DNA from: Ignavibacteriales bacterium
GTDB lineage: Bacteria; Bacteroidota; Ignavibacteria; UBA10030
Direction: 5' to 3'
DNA length: 64,000 bases
Assembly (NCBI GenBank): GCA_026390575.1
Contig: JAPLFR010000015.1
Coordinates: forward strand, 107,101 to 171,100
Shown: positions 1 through 41,100 of the stretch, piece after piece
Layout: each line of letters opens with the position of its first letter
How positions within the stretch are numbered: the first letter of the stretch is position 1
Notes under the pieces: model-generated
What the model was told of the DNA's origin: nothing
Database searches by the model: none
What the model saw: the letters and a program-made list of their open reading frames with translations, nothing else
Made by a program: the position numbers and the translations under genes

Positions 1-653
1 AATTTGTCGCAATCATGGGGGCGTCTGGTTCCGGTAAATCCACATTTATGAATATTTTGGGTTGCCTTGATAAACCAACGAAGGGATCGTATGTCCTTGA
101 GGGCATCGATGTCGGCAAATTATCCAGAGATGAACTCGCATCGATACGGAATAAAAAAATCGGATTTGTGTTTCAGGGATTTAATCTCCTTTCGCGCACA
201 TCGGCGCTTGAGAATGTGGAGCTCCCTTTGTTTTACGGTCCGACCTCAAACAAAGTCCGCAAAGCAAAAGCTATTGAAGCGCTCGATCGCGTAGGACTTG
301 GGGATAGAATTCATCATTATCCTAACCAGCTTTCTGGCGGTCAACAACAGCGAGTTGCAATCGCAAGAGCATTGGTAAACGATCCGAGTATTATTCTCGC
401 CGATGAGCCAACCGGTAATCTGGATAGTCGAACAAGCGTTGAGGTCATGGGTATATTCCAGGAACTGAATAATCATGGTATTACAGTTATTCTTGTAACG
501 CACGAACCGGACATTGCAACGTTTGCGAAACGACACATCGTTTTTCGAGATGGTAAGATTAAAACAGACAGGATCAACAGCAGTCCAAAGGTTGCTTCCG
601 AGGTGATCAAAGAGATGCCGATGATCGATGATGAAGAGGAGGAAGCGGCATGA
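1..653 (+). CDS. ABC transporter ATP-binding protein, MacB/LolD family (5'-partial; gene begins upstream of window)
   Basis: Translation begins inside the Walker A region (GASGSGKST) and has the ABC signature [15 protein letters not shown] plus Walker [12 protein letters not shown]. Its stop overlaps the start of the downstream FtsX permease (ATGA). Confidence 0.85.
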
Positions 654-1867
654 AGATTCTCAATATTCTTCATTCAGCGTTCAGAGCATTGCAGCGCAAT
701 AAGATGCGGTCATTTCTCACCATGCTCGGAATCATTATCGGTGTTGGGGCTGTGATAGCGATGCTTGCCATCGGCCAGGGCGCTGAATATTCAGTAAAGG
801 AACAAATTGCAGCGTTGGGTACAAATGTACTTATGGTCTATCCAGGCGCTCAACAACAAGCCGGAGTAAGGACTGCTGCAGGATCAGCAACAACTCTCAC
901 AGAGGATGATGCTCTCGCTATTGGAAGAGAATGCCCGGCAGTTCAGTATATTTCGCCGGGGGCAGGAGCCGGAGGTCAGGTCATTGCCGGCAATCTAAAT
1001 TGGTCGACCGGTATTCAGGGTGTCGGCTCCGACTATCTTGAGATACGCCAATGGCCGGTTGAATACGGAGAGTTCTTCACCGATCAAGATGTGAAGGCAG
1101 CAGCAAAAGTCTGCATCTTAGGAAGAACAGTTGCTGATAATCTTTTTCCCGAATCGAGTCCGGTTGATCAAACTGTTCGCATACGAAGTGTCCCATTTAA
1201 AGTCGTCGGCGTGCTGACAAAAAAAGGGCAAAACGCAATGGGGCAGGATCAAGACGATGTTATCCTTGCACCTTATACCACCGTCATACGAAGACTCTCT
1301 CATTGGCCCAATTTAAGGTTTATCCTTGTCTCCGCTACGAGTTTGAAGGATATCAGTGTTGCTCAAACACAGATCTCCGACCTTCTGCGCATGAGGCATA
1401 AAATTCAACCGTATGATCCGGACGATTTCACAATTCGTAACCAGACTGACCTCGCCGCAACAGCAACAGCAACCACTGATATCCTCACAATCCTTCTGGC
1501 AAGTATTGCATCGGTTTCGTTGCTTGTCGGCGGAATCGGCATTATGAACATCATGCTTGTCTCTGTCACAGAACGCACGCGCGAAATCGGTATCCGGATG
1601 TCTATTGGCGCACGAAGTAGAGACATCCTTACTCAATTTCTTATTGAAGCGCTTGTGCTTAGTTTATTGGGCGGTATTGTTGGAATCATCCTTGGCGTTG
1701 CCGGTTCATCGATTATATCGAGCATTGCGAAGTGGCCTACGATCGTCACAGCATTCTCGATTATTCTTTCGTTCGGCTTTTCAATTGCTATCGGGATATT
1801 TTTTGGATTTTATCCGGCGAGAAAGGCTGCAATGCTCAATCCCATCGACGCTTTGAGATATGAATAA
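650..1867 (+). CDS. ABC transporter permease, FtsX/MacB family
   Basis: 405 aa. N-terminal TM helix, large periplasmic domain, C-terminal 3-TM FtsX domain ending ...NPIDALRYE. Translationally coupled to the upstream ATPase. Confidence 0.85.
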
Positions 1868-1880
1868 CTTCCCCAAGAAC

Positions 1881-1929
1881 GAAGTCCATCTTCCACTTCT
1901 GGTTGATGAACGAAAGAAGATGGACTTCT
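1881..1929. terminator. Inverted repeat (13-bp stems gaagtccatcttc / gaagatggacttc) directly after the FtsX permease stop; putative terminator
   Basis: Perfect 13-bp inverted repeat seen in the sequence. The loop is about 23 nt and there is no strong T-run, so it is not a canonical intrinsic terminator. Confidence 0.45.
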
Positions 1930-2352
1930 CCTTCCTCGAAGTTTTCATCATAGTTCCATCTTCATAGAGGGTAATGATGCGCCTATTATTTTATGGAAGA
2001 CAAATCCAAGTTGTCAGTCCTTTGGAGAATCTACAACTCGTAATTTCGTAATAGGGAACCTTTATTCAATAATGTATGTCTATCAATGTATGAGCAATGA
2101 AACACATATAATGAAAGGACAAACCTAGAGAGAACCTTGATGACCGTTTATGCGAATAATTATTTCTCCGGGGTAAACGTGTTGGTTCGTTTCATTTCAA
2201 GTTGCAGAGAAGATTTTATAAACCATTTCACACCACCTGCGCATCTGCGCGATAGAGCTTCCATTTGCTGGGAAGCGATAGAGGGTGGTGTTTTTTTGTA
2301 CATATCTTTCGATTCCTAAACAGGAAATTGCATAGCAGAGAGAACCATTTCT

Positions 2353-3159
2353 ATGAAATTAAAATATTATCACGCTTCAGTTGTACAAACTATATATTTT
2401 ATAATCTATTTGGCTCTGTCTTCTGTAATAATATTTACCCCGATATTAATCAAGGGATCTGTATACATAACAAAATCATTTATTATTGATGAAGAAATAG
2501 CCGAAGTGATTCTTCTTGCTATTCTGTTCTCTCTCAATATTATGATTTTTAAATTATACAAGCGAGAAGCTTCCAGGCAGGAAGAATTCATAAAAAAAAT
2601 AAATAATGACAAGAAAACAACCGAGGAAAAACTTTATGATTCACTCAGTTATATTGGTAAAGTAAATGTTCAAATTGAAGAAATTAAAACAATTTTTAAT
2701 ACTGCGAACACATATCCGGAAACAAAAAATGAATTTAAAAAGACTTTCCGTTTCCTGAGCGAACGCGTCCTTGGAATTGTGAACACGAATTGGGCTTTGT
2801 TGAGAATAATCAACAGCAATACCCAGAGAACGATCAGCGAGTGTTTTGAAACACGACACGGCTTTTCTTGTCCATATCCCCACATCAGCAATAAAATGAT
2901 TATTGAAAAACAACTCATTCCATCGTGTACGACGGTTATTTCAAATTCAAAAAATTTAAATATCCTCGTCTATTGTACTATGCCCATTGATCAGATCAAC
3001 AATGATCAACAGATTTTTATCCAAGCGATCATAAATGAGATTATTATGCTCTTCATTATCTTGAATTCCTCATATTACAAAAACGGAAACAATGTCGACG
3101 AAGAAAACAATTCTCATGACAAAGGGAAAAAAATATATCCGATAACAGCGTTTGGTTGA
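2353..3159 (+). CDS. Hypothetical membrane-anchored protein in a very AT-rich insert
   Basis: 268-aa ORF with two predicted N-terminal TM helices followed by a hydrophilic K/E/N-rich domain. GC is far below its neighbours and I recognise no motif. Confidence 0.5.
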   Translation: MKLKYYHASVVQTIYFIIYLALSSVIIFTPILIKGSVYITKSFIIDEEIAEVILLAILFSLNIMIFKLYKREASRQEEFIKKINNDKKTTEEKLYDSLSYIGKVNVQIEEIKTIFNTANTYPETKNEFKKTFRFLSERVLGIVNTNWALLRIINSNTQRTISECFETRHGFSCPYPHISNKMIIEKQLIPSCTTVISNSKNLNILVYCTMPIDQINNDQQIFIQAIINEIIMLFIILNSSYYKNGNNVDEENNSHDKGKKIYPITAFG

Positions 3160-3223
3160 ATATGGTCGCTTGGAGCAAACCTCTTACATCTTGCTTGTTA
3201 CAGGATTTTCGAGAAATTATGGT

Positions 3224-3295
3224 ATGTCTTTCGGATCTTATCCGGCAAGAAAAGCAACAATGCTGAATCCCATCGACGCTTTGAGATATGAATAA
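3224..3295 (+). pseudogene. Duplicated 3'-terminal fragment of the FtsX permease gene (23 codons, ...[18 protein letters not shown])
   Basis: The sequence is near-identical to 1810-1867 (the last codons of the permease at 650-1867), and the same hairpin follows it. Confidence 0.55.
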
Positions 3296-3310
3296 CTCCC
3301 CCCTCAAATA

Positions 3311-3357
3311 CGAAGTCCATCTTCTCTTTCTGATGTAAAAGAAAAGAAGATGGACTT
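3311..3357. terminator. Second copy of the gaagtccatcttc / gaagatggacttc inverted repeat
   Basis: Same 13-bp stems as at 1881-1929. It follows the duplicated permease 3' fragment. Confidence 0.45.
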
Positions 3358-3415
3358 CACCTTCATACTAAACGATGTACGTTTTGCTGTTGGTACTATG
3401 AGATGCAGCTGTCCG

Positions 3416-4669
3416 TTATCGGAGTAAAATAAGTTTCTTGGTCTCTGAAAATGTCCCTGCCTGTAAACGGTAGAAATACACACCGCTTGGCAAATTGTTG
3501 GCGTTCCATTGCTTTGAGTAGGTTCCAGCTGCCATTTCATCAGAAACGAGAACCGACACTTCTCTCCCCAATGCATCGAATACTTTTAGCGATACATACG
3601 ATTTTGATGGGAGACTAAATGAGATGGTCGTTGTTGGATTGAATGGATTGGGATAGTTTTGAGAAAGATTAAAATCGTTGGGCAATTCATTTCTTTCATT
3701 GACACCCGTTGTTAACGCAGAAATCGGCACTCTAAATACTCCTCCAGTTTCTGTTCCAACAAAAATATTCGTGCCATATAATAATGCTGATGTAATTACT
3801 CCTCCCGAAATTCCACCAAGAGGTATCGTTGCTATTTGGAATGTGTTCAGGTTAATGGACGTACCAACATTATTGCCAAAGAAATAATATTGCCCACTTA
3901 TCATATCTGATGCGCATGACCTAAAATCTCCCGTTGCAACAGCGGGCGTCCAACTGGTAAAAGTTGGAAGAGATAAATTTAAATAAAGTCCGTTACTGGT
4001 TAAAGCAAAAATCGAAAATATGTTGTTTATCTTCAATGCATCCCCACTAAGCCCGGTATTTGCTTCAGTCCAAGTGCTGCCACGATCGGTTGACTTGAAA
4101 GCGCCATTTTCTGTTCCTGCAATTAATAAAACAGATACATCCTGACTCATAAATCCTCTAATGTTTTTTGATGCTCCTGCAGGAATTCCAGTTGCTTCAG
4201 TCCAGATAAACGTAGTATTATCCTCGGTAAAAAAGATACCGCCATTTTTTGTTCCAACTATTCTTCTTGAAGGATTATTGTATTGTCTATATAGAGTTAT
4301 ATCTTTATTCGCAAGGGTTTGCACAAACGGCGGTACATATAATGCAATTGGAGGTTGTAGGAGAGCCATGCCATTTTGAGCGTAAATAAACATATTTTGA
4401 CCAGTAATAACATCGCCCTCTAAACCAAAAATGTTAAGACTTGGTAAGGTGCCATTTTCACTATAAGTACTCCATGAATCACCATTATTCGTGGAACTAA
4501 AAATTCCTTTATCTGAAGTGCCGGCATAGATTGTCGTACCAACTCGAGCCACACCGGTAATGTTTAAGCTGCCAAGATTATTGTTTATTGGAGTCCACTG
4601 AGCAAACAGCGGAGTGATAGCAGTGAAAATTGAAAATACCAATACGATAAACCGGAACAAAACTTTCAT
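3416..4669 (-). CDS. Secreted BNR/Asp-box repeat protein with T9SS (Por) C-terminal sorting domain
   Basis: Signal peptide MKVLFRFIVLVFSIFTAITPLFAQ. Repeated S-x-D-x-G-x-(S/T)-W motifs (NNGDSWST, DRGSTWTE). C-terminus ...NYPNPFNPTTTISFSLP...GVYFYRLQAG matches a T9SS CTD. RBS AGGAGA lies upstream. Confidence 0.85.
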   Translation of the reverse strand: MKVLFRFIVLVFSIFTAITPLFAQWTPINNNLGSLNITGVARVGTTIYAGTSDKGIFSSTNNGDSWSTYSENGTLPSLNIFGLEGDVITGQNMFIYAQNGMALLQPPIALYVPPFVQTLANKDITLYRQYNNPSRRIVGTKNGGIFFTEDNTTFIWTEATGIPAGASKNIRGFMSQDVSVLLIAGTENGAFKSTDRGSTWTEANTGLSGDALKINNIFSIFALTSNGLYLNLSLPTFTSWTPAVATGDFRSCASDMISGQYYFFGNNVGTSINLNTFQIATIPLGGISGGVITSALLYGTNIFVGTETGGVFRVPISALTTGVNERNELPNDFNLSQNYPNPFNPTTTISFSLPSKSYVSLKVFDALGREVSVLVSDEMAAGTYSKQWNANNLPSGVYFYRLQAGTFSETKKLILLR

Positions 4670-5166
4670 AAATAATTCTCCTTAATTAAACTATGATTGA
4701 GTTAATAATAATGAATGCGGTGAGAACGGAAGCTTGAGGACAAAAAAGGCAAAAACCGCGTCACAACATGTAAAATGATAACCAATATTTATTATGTTTA
4801 CTATTTAAAAATAGCGAATGATGGCGATAATATCAAGAATTATGTGTGATCTCAAAAATATCCATCCCATTGGTACTCTTGCTCCATCGGTATTACGAAT
4901 AGTATAGTTGTACCTGTTATGGAACAAACACATGAAATCAGTCACGGAGAGTATCGTTCCTCAAAATTTTCATCCCTCTTTCATCTTTTTTTAGTACTCT
5001 ATATATAGAGTAATTTATGTCTATACTTTTATTAAAGATGATTCCAAGGTATCTGCATCTATCGCAAAGCATTTGCTGGCGGAGAGACTATTTAGAACCA
5101 CTTGCGATTTTCTATTGTTAAGATAAAGTATGCTATATATAAACAATCATATTTTGGAGAACCATC

Positions 5167-6192
5167 ATGTTTAAAACTATACAACACATCGCAATTTTTT
5201 TTATGTGCCTTTCAGTAATTGGTCAGGCACAACCTACAACCGGTTATCATGTCGTAAAAAGGATTACCGTTGGCGGTGAAGGCGGGTGGGATTATATTAC
5301 GTTTCATGCTCAATCGCATCGATTGTTTGCATCGCACGGTACCAAGGTTGTTGTGATAAGCACCGATTCCGATAAAGTCATTGGCGAAATTCCTAAGACA
5401 GAAGGTGTACATGGTATTGCGGTGGCTAACGAATTTGGACGCTGTTTTATCTCCAATGGACGTACAGCCACAGTCAGTATTGTTGACTTGAAAACATTAA
5501 AGCTTATCGACACCGTTTCCGTTGGGAAAAATCCGGATGCGATTCTGTACGATTCTTTTTCCCGCCGCGTATTTGTTTTTAACGGACGAAGCAATGATGC
5601 AACGATTCTTGATGCTAAAAATGGATCCGTAGTTTCAACATTGCCGCTTGGCGGCAAACCTGAATTTTCCGTCACTGATGGCAATGGACGTGTCTTTGTC
5701 AATATCGAAGATAAAAGTGAAATTGTCGTCATCGATGCAAAAGCAATGAAAATACTGTATCGCTGGTCAATAAAACCCGGTGAAGAACCTTCCGGTTTGG
5801 CTATCGATGTCAAACATAATCGCCTATTTTCTGTGTGCGGCAATAAATTGATGGTCGTCGTAAATGCAGAAAACGGAAATGTTGTTACCTCGCTTCCCAT
5901 CGGCGATAGAGTCGATGGCTGTGCGTTTGATCCTGGTGCAGGACTCGTTTTTTCATCAAACGGCGATGGCACCATGACGGTCATTCGCGAAGATTCTCCA
6001 TCGAAATTTTCTGTTCTGGAAACTGTGAAAACCCAAATTGGTGCACGCACAATAACAGTTGATCCCAAAACGCACACGTTGTATCTTCCCGCTGCAGAAT
6101 TCGGCCCGGTGCCCGCTCCAACACCCGATCGGCCTCGATCACGACCACCGATTTTACCGGATACATTTTGTATTCTGAAAATTCAAAAATAA
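5167..6192 (+). CDS. YVTN-family beta-propeller repeat protein (secreted)
   Basis: Signal peptide, then repeated about 40-aa units (…V…D…I.TI.VG..P.GIAV…) typical of YVTN/NHL-like propellers. Confidence 0.8.
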   Translation: MFKTIQHIAIFFMCLSVIGQAQPTTGYHVVKRITVGGEGGWDYITFHAQSHRLFASHGTKVVVISTDSDKVIGEIPKTEGVHGIAVANEFGRCFISNGRTATVSIVDLKTLKLIDTVSVGKNPDAILYDSFSRRVFVFNGRSNDATILDAKNGSVVSTLPLGGKPEFSVTDGNGRVFVNIEDKSEIVVIDAKAMKILYRWSIKPGEEPSGLAIDVKHNRLFSVCGNKLMVVVNAENGNVVTSLPIGDRVDGCAFDPGAGLVFSSNGDGTMTVIREDSPSKFSVLETVKTQIGARTITVDPKTHTLYLPAAEFGPVPAPTPDRPRSRPPILPDTFCILKIQK

Positions 6193-40085: not shown

Positions 40086-40194
40086 AAATACAATCGTACC
40101 ATATTAAAAAAATGAGTTTCCGTCCATTCTCTCTTGCACGGTGGGAATGAAGGATGGTTCACATATCTCCGGTCTTCCAGTTCCGGGTCGTTAT

Positions 40195-40216
40195 CTCCGG
40201 GAGGCCGGAGTTTTTT
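40195..40216 (+). terminator. Rho-independent terminator after ftsZ (ctccgg-gagg-ccggag + T6)
   Basis: 6-bp GC stems with a 4-nt loop, followed by TTTTTT. Confidence 0.6.
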
Positions 40217-40431
40217 ATTATGGTAACATCTTTTTCAAACTCTAGACAAGTCTCAACAAAAAACATTAATATTTTTTCTGAGCAATGGAAATATATAAAC
40301 AAAAACGGAGAATCCTGTAAAGAACTCTCCGTTTTGTTATTTAGGAGGCCGCTGTTTATTTGCGGGTGCGGTGAACCCATAAAAATGTATCTTGGATTAT
40401 TCGAAAATCAGTTCAAAGATTTTTTTCCGAA

Positions 40432-40890
40432 TTATTTTTCGTTATTTTCCTTCAAGGAACGATAGTTTAATGAGTATTCATTGAGCTTTACCGCCCTCTC
40501 AGCAACTGCGCTGAAAAATGCATCCGTGGTCTTATAATGACATGTAGCCTCTTCTTTGAAGAAAGCCGTGTTAGCAAACACTGCTTTCGCTAATGATGCT
40601 CTATATTGAATTGTCGGTGTTGCAGCATGCGCTGCAATAGTATCAATTCTATTTTGGATCATCGGAAATTTGTCCGCAGGAAGATCCAGTTGTATCATCG
40701 TAACAGTAGCAAGAGCGTTTTCAATATAATGGTTGTTCTGAGATTTTAAAAGGGACGCATACGCGAGATCCAGTTGTTCTTTCGCTTCAGCAGAATATCC
40801 TTTGAGAGCAGGATAAAAGGTTTGCGCCTGTGAAAGACCGGTTATTACAACTATCATCAGTGCAGCCAATATCATTTGTTTCTTGTTCAT
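40432..40890 (-). CDS. Hypothetical secreted helical protein (TPR-like?)
   Basis: Signal peptide MNKKQMILAALMIVVITGLSQAQ (start ATG 40890, RBS GGAGGA). Helical repeats. Confidence 0.55.
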   Translation of the reverse strand: MNKKQMILAALMIVVITGLSQAQTFYPALKGYSAEAKEQLDLAYASLLKSQNNHYIENALATVTMIQLDLPADKFPMIQNRIDTIAAHAATPTIQYRASLAKAVFANTAFFKEEATCHYKTTDAFFSAVAERAVKLNEYSLNYRSLKENNEK

Positions 40891-41100
40891 AACATCCTCC
40901 TGTAAAAGTGTGGGTTTATAATTCGTCGACTGGTACTTAATACGCCCACGATACGCTAAAGATGTCACCGTTCGGTCAGGAATTGTAAATTATTGTCATG
41001 GAATGAGTCTCTCTACTTCCAAGTTGTTATCTCCGGGAGACCGGAGTATTTTTTGATTCTAAAAATATTTTTTGGTTGACTATTGATTTTTTGAAACTTC

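What the first reader, a model, noticed from the sequence alone, without database searches (positions are those of the whole stretch)
1805..3365. Direct duplication of a gene 3' end plus terminator flanking a 1.3-kb AT-rich orphan insert
Seen in the sequence: the last roughly 60 nt of the FtsX permease gene (…NPIDALRYE*) and its 13-bp-stem inverted repeat (gaagtccatcttc/gaagatggacttc) occur twice as an imperfect direct repeat of about 130 bp. The copies are at 1805-1935 and 3233-3365. Together they bracket a very low-GC segment containing one membrane-anchored ORF (2353-3159) and leave a 23-codon in-frame remnant at 3224-3295. Inference: this is the classic scar of a site-specific insertion into a gene's 3' end in which the incoming element supplies a replacement 3' end. 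The mobilisation genes have since decayed, since no integrase or transposase is present. A recombination between hairpin repeats is the alternative.
Basis: seen in the sequence. Interest (0 to 1): 0.55.

Follow-up and report, generated by a model that had tools for sequence, protein, structure and literature searches.

The report
Recombination scar behind an ABC permease gene
The repeat is real: it is the leftover original end of a transporter gene, pushed aside when DNA from a relative carrying its own copy of that gene end plus one extra gene was spliced in, most likely by ordinary recombination and not by a mobile element.

Summary
The last ~21-25 codons of the MacB/FtsX permease gene plus its 13-bp-stem hairpin occur twice (1793-1937 and 3221-3366, ~85% identical). 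Nothing similar occurs elsewhere in the window.

Related metagenome contigs hold true empty sites, with the permease, one hairpin and the convergent T9SS-cargo gene directly adjacent. Copy B matches that single-copy end and is decaying as a pseudogene, so DNA carrying a replacement 3' end was inserted.

Three points do not hold:
- The 268-aa ORF is not an orphan. It has more than 340 homologues and a predicted membrane-anchored GAF-like fold.
- Its low GC comes mainly from amino-acid composition.
- Nothing supports a site-specific element. There is no recombinase or relic of one, and the ORF has no flanking repeats in other contexts.

Relatives carry independent insertions at the same gene end, with other cargo or order and different junctions. 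One has a SpoIIE phosphatase with a ~64-codon remnant. Another has three permease-end copies.

The best explanation is repeated homology-anchored insertion with one illegitimate joint, either HFIR-like or Campbell-type. Each event displaces the old 3' end, as in Rhs and T6SS orphan arrays. This is ordinary genome evolution and a tidy multi-allele example. Interest is low to moderate.

The parts
650..1867 (+). Intact MacB-type ABC permease gene (405 aa), the conserved anchor gene.
   Evidence: Pfam MacB_PCD 4.6e-53 and FtsX 2.1e-21. It is 92-98% aa identical in relatives L003, L008, L009 and L027.
1793..1867 (+). Copy A, coding part: the last 25 codons plus stop of the functional permease. This is the replacement 3' end that arrived with the insert.
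   Evidence: All 5 differences from the empty-site allele L146 are synonymous.
1881..1928 (+). Hairpin A: 13-bp perfect stem GAAGTCCATCTTC/GAAGATGGACTTC, the putative permease terminator.
   Evidence: -23.8 kcal/mol.
1937..2031 (+). Relic of the promoter and first ~17 codons of an OmpR-type response-regulator gene (ATG at 1977). It is the A-type right flank shared by all ORF268-bearing relatives.
   Evidence: nhmmer with the intact L009 regulator upstream region and 5' end: window 1865-2018 E 2e-5, L008 4.5e-9, L003 9e-8. Alignment.
2031..2297 (+). Conserved non-coding leader that travels with the 268-aa gene. It ends in a Y-shaped terminator-like structure plus U-run (2230-2297).
   Evidence: nhmmer finds it in 9 close relatives, including two other genomic contexts. 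The alifold consensus has 39 pairs, 6 with compensatory changes. Fold -29.4 kcal/mol, z -4.1. No Rfam match.
2353..3159 (+). Cargo gene: a 268-aa conserved hypothetical membrane protein with 2 TM helices, a long helix and a GAF-like domain.
3160..3232 (+). Donor-type 3' tail of the cargo gene. It is homologous to the tails in L003, L008, L009, L011, L027 and L148 and ends at the illegitimate junction (~3232/3233, microhomology TCTTTC/TTTTTC).
3221..3295 (+). Copy B, coding part: the displaced original 3' end of the permease, now a pseudogene remnant. Secure homology starts at ~3233. Weak similarity reaches back to 3203.
   Evidence: It has 4 non-synonymous changes against L146. The L144 orthologue has lost the stop.
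3312..3358 (+). Hairpin B: 17-nt arms, the original shared hairpin between the permease and the convergent T9SS gene.
   Evidence: I4; -27.3 kcal/mol, z -7.1. Hairpin and flank match the empty-site alleles.
3416..4669 (-). T9SS-sorted secreted protein gene (417 aa), the original convergent neighbour of the permease and itself an older module.
   Evidence: Pfam Por_Secre_tail 4.3e-13. It is adjacent to the permease in the empty-site contigs.
4885..4939 (+). Decayed internal fragment of an FtsX permease (motif [18 protein letters not shown]), a relic of an older displaced permease copy to the right of the T9SS gene.
   Evidence: blastn 78% to the L009 permease, E 1.9e-6. The same relic is present in L144, L145 and L146.
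4952..5087 (+). Second, better-preserved relic of the response-regulator promoter and first ~25 codons (frameshifted).
   Evidence: nhmmer E 4e-20. tblastn and alignment to the L009 regulator.
5167..6192 (+). YNCE-like beta-propeller gene, the start of the conserved right flank (followed by TolC-MFP-RND).

Best explanation
The locus downstream of a highly conserved MacB-type permease gene is a variable region. It has been rebuilt several times by recombination that uses the permease gene as a homologous anchor.

In the lineage of this window the starting state was permease, hairpin, then the convergent T9SS gene. DNA then arrived from a relative whose order was permease, hairpin, response-regulator relic, leader, 268-aa gene. 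That DNA recombined homologously within the permease on the left. On the right it was joined illegitimately at a 5-8-nt microhomology, about 21-23 codons before the resident stop codon.

The result is an intact permease with the donor's 3' end and hairpin (copy A), the 1.3-kb cargo, and the resident 3' end and hairpin displaced downstream (copy B). Copy B now decays as a pseudogene. Its hairpin is kept, presumably as the terminator shared with the T9SS gene.

Two routes give this same product and cannot be told apart here. One is homology-facilitated illegitimate recombination of a linear fragment. The other is single-crossover (Campbell-type) integration of a circularised fragment.

Once present, the ~145-bp repeats and the flanking conserved genes allow ordinary homologous recombination to delete, swap or reorder the modules.

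Shown: the duplication, the empty site, the orthology of copy B to the empty site, the decay of copy B, donor-type arrangements without copy B, independent events with other junctions, and mosaic recombinants. Inferred: the direction of transfer (which genome was recipient), the enzymatic route, and the terminator role of the hairpins.
For: 1. Empty-site alleles. L146 has an intact permease 3' part, one hairpin, then the T9SS gene. L147 is the same. The contigs of P0124 and P0136 show HypA/206aa-MFP-ABC-permease followed by the convergent T9SS gene (then YNCE-OEP-MFP-RND in P0124), with 108-119 nt between the two stops against 120 nt from the copy B stop to the T9SS stop in the window.

2. Copy B clusters with the empty-site copy and with L144's copy B in UTR, hairpin and right flank. 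Copy A clusters with the ORF268-linked copies.

3. Copy B is non-functional and ageing.

4. Donor-type arrangements exist in L003, L008, L009, L011 and L027: permease, hairpin A, regulator relic, leader, ORF268, tail, with no copy B. Homology to the window stops at ~3232.

5. There are independent events with different junctions. In L145 the cargo is a SpoIIE/PP2C gene, and the remnant starts ~63 codons before the stop and has an internal 30-nt deletion. L148 has three permease-end copies in the order permease, T9SS, ORF268, and its donor-side junction lies 225 nt after the ORF268 stop, inside the next gene. An older permease relic lies to the right of the T9SS gene in the window, L144, L145 and L146.

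6. Homologous exchange at the permease 3' end is directly visible. L007 has an L145-like permease body (~99%) joined near window position 1730 to a window-like module (~98%; 4-fold site divergence 0.06 against 0.43 in the permease).

7. No recombinase gene lies in the insert or within ~6 kb in related contigs.

8. The mechanism and its arrays of displaced 3' remnants are described for T6SS effector-immunity and Rhs loci (PMC5361080). HFIR and circularisation followed by single crossover are described in PMC3240628.
Against: - The left homologous crossover could not be located. The window's permease is about equally distant (10-15% nt) from all sampled relatives.
- 4-fold-site divergence from L027 is uniform across the locus, so no transfer tract is visible against that relative.
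- The polarity is not proven. A mirror event, in which the T9SS-side fragment with its permease stub enters using a right-hand anchor, gives the same structure.
- Empty sites could be secondary deletions between copies A and B and not the ancestral state.
- Natural competence or another DNA uptake route is unknown for these uncultivated Ignavibacteriales.
- All relatives are short metagenome contigs, so haplotypes are incomplete. Two key contigs had no retrievable DNA.
Confidence: 0.7

Rival explanations
1. Site-specific integration. A small integrative element carrying an attP that mimics the permease 3' end was inserted by a tyrosine or serine recombinase. That recombinase either decayed afterwards or acts in trans.
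For: Direct repeats derived from a gene's 3' end, an intact reconstituted gene and empty-site alleles are what such elements leave. The stem sequence of the hairpin is strikingly conserved across lineages. Several single-gene modules sit between such units.
Against: No recombinase gene or relic is present. Every base between the repeats is assigned to other conserved features. The module occurs elsewhere without repeats. Remnant lengths and donor-side junctions differ between events: about 21-25, about 18-23, about 63 and at least 96 codons. No integrase lies within ~6 kb in related contigs.
Confidence: 0.07
2. Shuffling by purely homologous recombination. The array of permease-end/hairpin units existed first. 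The window's order arose when a module flanked by two units was excised as a circle and re-integrated at another unit. On this view copy B marks no new illegitimate event in this lineage.
For: L148 and the window hold the same two modules in opposite order, each bounded by permease-end/hairpin units. The repeats include a 30-bp identical block, which is enough for RecA-type exchange. The L007 mosaic shows that homologous recombination is active here.
Against: The tail/remnant junctions of the window and L148 differ on both sides: 73 against 225 nt of tail, with different permease positions. They are therefore not the same cassette moved. The first copy of each remnant still needs an illegitimate joint.
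Confidence: 0.15
3. Remnant of a tandem paralogue or a local tandem duplication. A second permease gene once followed the first and was mostly deleted, leaving its last codons.
For: FtsX permease genes are often tandem. A second internal FtsX relic lies at 4885-4939.
Against: Copy B's hairpin and right flank are orthologous to the single-copy end of empty-site genomes. No relative shows two complete permease genes here. The junction coincides exactly with the end of homology to donor-type tails.
Confidence: 0.05

Closest known systems
Homology-facilitated illegitimate recombination (one-sided homology anchor plus illegitimate joint) and Campbell-type single crossover of circularised DNA. Described for Acinetobacter, S. 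pneumoniae, P. stutzeri and E. coli (PMC3240628; references 41, 42 and 47 in PMC5361080).
   Same: A conserved anchor gene on one side. New DNA is added next to it. The joint on the far side sits at a short microhomology. Part of the resident sequence is displaced or duplicated.
   Different: Here it is inferred only from natural sequence variation in uncultivated Ignavibacteriales. No uptake route or enzymes are known, and the left crossover is not resolved.
Sequential displacement arrays: orphan 3' ends at Rhs/CDI loci and orphan immunity genes at Vibrio cholerae T6SS effector-immunity loci (PMC5361080).
   Same: There is an intact conserved gene, then the newest module, then older modules. 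Each older module is preceded by a displaced 3' remnant of the conserved gene. Different strains show different orders and contents.
   Different: The anchor is a housekeeping-type ABC permease and not a polymorphic toxin. The cargo genes (a GAF-like membrane protein, a PP2C phosphatase, a T9SS-secreted protein) have no toxin-immunity logic. The remnants are short and non-functional.
Integrative elements inserted into the 3' ends of tRNA, tmRNA or protein genes, which carry a replacement 3' end in attP.
   Same: Direct repeats made of the target gene's 3' end. The gene is kept intact. Empty sites occur in relatives.
   Different: No integrase, a 1.3-kb single-gene insert, variable repeat boundaries between independent events, and no common core.

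Membership tests
Recombinase-mediated integrative element at a gene 3' end | A site-specific recombinase gene (or a recognisable relic) within or next to the inserted DNA | tested here: not met
   The only ORF with support is the 268-aa GAF-like protein. The rest is a regulator relic and a conserved leader. Neighbouring genes in related contigs include no integrase.
Recombinase-mediated integrative element at a gene 3' end | The same crossover core and the same repeat boundaries in independent insertions | tested here: not met
   Remnants begin at different permease positions in the window, L145, L148 and the old relic. Donor-side junctions also differ.
Recombinase-mediated integrative element at a gene 3' end | Direct repeats derived from the target's 3' end, an intact target gene, and empty-site alleles | tested here: met
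HFIR-type or sequential-displacement scar | An intact conserved anchor gene followed by new DNA and then a displaced remnant of the same gene's 3' end | tested here: met
   Window, L144, L145 and L148.
HFIR-type or sequential-displacement scar | A donor arrangement exists in which the cargo follows the anchor gene without any remnant | tested here: met
   L003, L008, L009, L011 and L027.
HFIR-type or sequential-displacement scar | An illegitimate joint at a short microhomology, at variable positions | tested here: met
   The junction at ~3232/3233 lies in TCTTTC/TTTTTC. Positions differ in L145 and L148. The microhomology was read from alignments, not tested statistically.
HFIR-type or sequential-displacement scar | A homologous crossover tract in the anchor, detectable as a change in relatedness | tested here: inconclusive
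   Seen clearly in L007 against the window at ~1730. Not resolvable for the window's own founding event.
HFIR-type or sequential-displacement scar | The host takes up and recombines foreign linear DNA (competence or an equivalent) | not testable with these tools
   Uncultivated MAG lineage.
REP/BIME-type dispersed palindromic repeat | Many dispersed intergenic copies in the genome | tested here: not met
   Only the two copies occur in 64 kb. In 148 fetched loci the stem occurs only at permease ends. The rest of the genome was not available.
Transposon with target-site duplication | A short target-site duplication, terminal inverted repeats and a transposase | tested here: not met
   The repeat is ~145 bp of gene end. 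The insert has no terminal inverted repeats and no transposase.
Integron cassette array | An intI integrase with attI next to the array, and attC sites bounding the cassettes | tested here: inconclusive
   No integrase was seen in about 6 kb on either side in relatives. The repeated units contain coding sequence of the permease, which attC sites do not. No attC model was run.
GAF domain proteins (for the cargo ORF) | Sequence-profile membership in the GAF family | tested here: not met

The most novel reading that the evidence does not exclude
The permease-end/hairpin unit, whose 13-bp stem sequence is almost invariant across diverged lineages, could be a dedicated recombination site. An unlinked recombinase or a hairpin-directed process would recognise it and use it to capture and reorder single-gene cassettes (GAF-like membrane protein, PP2C phosphatase, T9SS-secreted protein) behind the transporter operon. 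That would be an integron-like cassette system in Ignavibacteria.
Probability: 0.05. Interest if true: 0.75.

Novelty: new member of a known kind. Interest (0 to 1): 0.3.

Why it matters
The region is explained and no mobile element needs to be invoked.

Its modest wider value is as a natural example of additive integration anchored in a conserved gene, in uncultivated peat and fen Ignavibacteriales. One locus shows at least four allelic states: empty, ORF268, SpoIIE, and reordered with three copies. Several independent junctions are visible.

Field evidence for this kind of recombination is sparse outside toxin loci. The locus could therefore serve as a marker for recombination and strain structure in these populations.

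For annotation, it warns that copy B and the short ORFs at 3152-3295 and 3224-3295 are pseudogene remnants. It also shows that the 'AT-rich orphan' is a conserved gene family.

Tried and rejected
- Rfam search of 1500-5300 at E up to 1 found nothing.
- I looked for decayed copy B remnants behind ORF268 in L003, L008, L009, L011 and L027. blastn and a permease-end profile found none. The weak visual similarity in MAFFT alignments was not significant.
- The genome-contig scan with the permease returned only one close relative, L061 at 78%, which has no ORF268 downstream. The rest were 60% identical or less and uninformative.
- I searched for flanking repeats around ORF268 homologues in other contexts and found none.
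- I tried to locate the left crossover, or a transfer tract, from 4-fold-site divergence and sliding distances. There was no signal except in L007.
- GC content as evidence of foreign origin was rejected, because the low GC is compositional.
- The tandem-paralogue idea was rejected on the orthology of copy B's flank to empty sites.
- The afdb50 fold library was unavailable.
- A PDB sequence search of the ORF family gave only weak coiled-coil hits.
- Leader motifs were sought upstream of distant ORF268 homologues and were absent below ~78% identity.
- DNA of the two JGI 3300075153 contigs could not be retrieved.
Full report
**Observation**

The window begins inside an ABC ATPase gene. This is followed by an intact MacB-type permease gene at 650-1867 (Pfam MacB_PCD and FtsX).

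The last 25 codons of that gene, its stop codon and a hairpin with a perfect 13-bp stem are present twice. Copy A is at 1793-1937 and copy B at 3221-3366, a spacing of 1428 nt. Several measures show this is not chance:
- A 30-mer is identical in both copies, with zero matches expected in shuffles.
- The stem 13-mer occurs only at these four arm positions in 64 kb.
- A profile of permease 3' ends from relatives finds copy B with E 2e-35.
- Both hairpins fold stably.

Comparison with relatives places the real junction at ~3232/3233.

**What lies between the copies**

The 268-aa ORF (2353-3159) is not an orphan. It has at least 344 homologues in Ignavibacteria and Bacteroidota metagenomes and MAGs, down to about 50% identity, none with a Pfam or NCBIfam hit.

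Its low GC is mainly compositional. GC12 is 0.305 here and 0.28-0.36 in all homologues. GC3 is 0.34, like the neighbouring T9SS and YNCE genes.

Upstream of the ORF is a conserved ~270-nt leader (2031-2297) that ends in a Y-shaped terminator-like structure. It accompanies the ORF in nine close relatives, including genomes where the ORF sits behind a cystathionine gamma-synthase gene instead of the permease.

The 95 nt between hairpin A and the leader (1937-2031) are a relic of the promoter and first ~17 codons of an OmpR-type response regulator.

**Relatives**

Contigs were fetched through the ORF, the permease and the T9SS protein. They show at least four states of this locus.

1. *Empty.* L146 has an intact permease 3' part, a single hairpin, then the convergent T9SS gene. 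L147 is the same. By gene order, the 49.9-kb contig of P0124 reads HypA/206aa-MFP-ABC-permease, convergent T9SS, YNCE-OEP-MFP-RND. This is the window's order without the ORF. The contig of P0136 is similar.
2. *Window-like.* L144 is 88% identical to the window across 3121-5056. It has the end of ORF268, the tail, copy B, the hairpin and the T9SS gene. L007 reproduces the left side.
3. *Donor-like.* L003, L008, L009, L011 and L027 have permease, hairpin A, regulator relic, leader, ORF268 and tail, but no copy B. Their right flanks differ: a 281-aa gene in most, and YNCE directly in L027.
4. *Other cargo or order.* L145 carries a SpoIIE/PP2C phosphatase gene between the permease end and a longer, decayed remnant. 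That remnant starts ~63 codons before the stop, has a 30-nt internal deletion and has lost the stop. L148 has three permease-end copies in the order permease, h1, T9SS, p2-h2-regulator relic-leader-ORF268-tail, p3-h3, YNCE. Its tail runs 225 nt into the 5' end of the 281-aa gene before joining p3.

**Which copy is original**

In the UTR, hairpin and right flank, the window's copy B groups with L144's copy B and with the single copy of the empty site. Against L146 it differs at 8/71 and 3/22 positions. Copy A differs from L146 at 18/69 and 17/22 positions, and groups with the ORF268-linked copies.

Copy B has 4 non-synonymous and 3 synonymous differences from L146 in 25 codons. Copy A has 0 and 5. 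L144's copy B has further amino-acid changes and no stop.

Copy B is therefore the resident 3' end, displaced and decaying. Copy A came with the insert.

**Mechanism**

The homology between the window and the donor-like tails ends at ~3232, inside TGTCTTTC. From there the sequence follows the permease (TTTTTCGGATTTTATCCGG in L146). This is a short microhomology joint.

The independent events in L145 and L148 break the permease at other positions. L148 also breaks the donor at another position.

There is also an older scar. A further internal FtsX relic (window 4885-4939, also in L144, L145 and L146) lies to the right of the T9SS gene, next to a second regulator relic (4952-5087). This implies the T9SS gene itself arrived earlier in the same way, behind a permease-regulator arrangement.

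Homologous exchange at the permease end is directly visible. L007 is ~99% identical to L145 in the permease body. It switches near window position 1730 to ~98% identity with the window through the hairpin, leader and ORF268. 4-fold-site divergence is 0.43 in the permease against 0.06 in ORF268.

This pattern is that of homology-anchored insertion with one illegitimate joint. The route could be HFIR, or circularisation followed by a single crossover (PMC3240628). It also matches the 'sequential displacement' arrays described for T6SS effector-immunity and Rhs loci (PMC5361080). I hold this explanation at about 0.7.

**Against a site-specific element**

- There is no recombinase or relic of one. 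All bases between the repeats are assigned to other features.
- The leader-plus-ORF module has no flanking repeats in other contexts.
- Junctions vary between events.
- The hairpin is not a dispersed REP-type repeat in the sequence available.

**Limits**

- The left crossover of the founding event cannot be located.
- Divergence from L027 is uniform across the locus.
- The polarity is inferred. The T9SS side entering by a right-hand anchor gives the same product.
- Empty sites may in part be secondary deletions between the repeats.
- The relatives are short metagenome contigs, and two had no retrievable DNA.

**Verdict**

The inference that incoming DNA supplied a replacement 3' end is right. 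The claims of a site-specific mobile element and an orphan gene are not supported.

This is a new instance of a known kind of recombination scar. It is of low to moderate interest, made somewhat richer by the several independent alleles at one site.

Noticed in passing
window 2031-2297 (also L003 4569-4873, L008 5685-6000, L027 5679-5998, L039 5626-5993, L010 3764-4089, L009 874-1179, L011 175-494): A conserved ~270-nt non-coding element lies upstream of the 268-aa gene. It has invariant blocks (GGGAACCTTTATTCAA, AGAACCTTGATGACCGTTTA, TAAACGTGTTGGTTCG) that can pair (GAACC/GGTTC, ACCGTTTA/TAAACG), followed by a three-way terminator-like structure with a U-run and compensatory changes. There is no Rfam match. 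Its distance to the start codon varies (about 65 or about 190 nt), so it may be a separate small RNA and not an attenuator. It was found only in the clade with at least 78% ORF identity.
   Followed up: partly
window 1937-2031 and 4952-5087; intact gene in L009 4525-5283: Two relics of the promoter and 5' end of an OmpR-type response-regulator gene. One lies directly after hairpin A and one directly upstream of the YNCE-like gene. This implies the permease was once followed by a two-component regulator.
   Followed up: yes
window 4885-4939; L144 (rc) 1738-1817, L145 (rc) 3757-3831, L146 (rc) 1818-1888: A decayed internal fragment of an FtsX permease (motif [18 protein letters not shown]) lies to the right of the T9SS gene in all T9SS-bearing alleles. 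It is an older displaced permease copy.
   Followed up: partly
L007 (Ga0182028_1421967) against window 1351-3104 and against L145: A mosaic contig. The permease body is ~99% L145-like, and the sequence from ~1730 onward is ~98% window-like. An L145-like patch of six synonymous differences lies at window 1837-1856, exactly where the window's copies A and B are identical. This hints at gene conversion between the repeats.
   Followed up: partly
L145 7564-8616 (-); L004 3550-3918 and L005 5794-6162: The alternative cargo at the same site is a membrane-anchored SpoIIE/PP2C phosphatase (Pfam 1.7e-54). Distant homologues of the 268-aa gene are followed by a conserved 122-aa gene with a weak SpoIIAA-like (STAS) hit (E 1.9e-4, below the cut-off). 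Both cargos may feed partner-switching signalling.
   Followed up: no
L042, L045, L046, L048, L056: In more distant genomes the 268-aa homologue lies convergent to another MacB-type permease and ABC ATPase pair (54-63% identical). This is a second, differently oriented association of the two families. It could be chance, given how common these permeases are.
   Followed up: no
L001 and L002 (Logan contigs SRR25046533, SRR25046531): Short-read contigs carrying the exact permease end 2 nt after its stop codon, inside the 30-bp block shared by copies A and B. An assembler would be expected to break at a true repeat in this way.
   Followed up: no
window 40176-40235 and 41012-41071: This is the only other direct repeat of at least 45 nt in the window: 60 nt, 75% identical. 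It contains a terminator-like CTCCGGGAGGCCGGAG plus T-run and brackets a 178-aa reverse-strand ORF (40432-40968). It may be a similar small scar.
   Followed up: no
L001 2824-3444; also L003 and the P0124 contig: A conserved 206-aa gene lies upstream of the MFP-ABC-permease operon. It has only weak MarR/winged-helix hits (E 1e-3) and is probably the operon's regulator.
   Followed up: no
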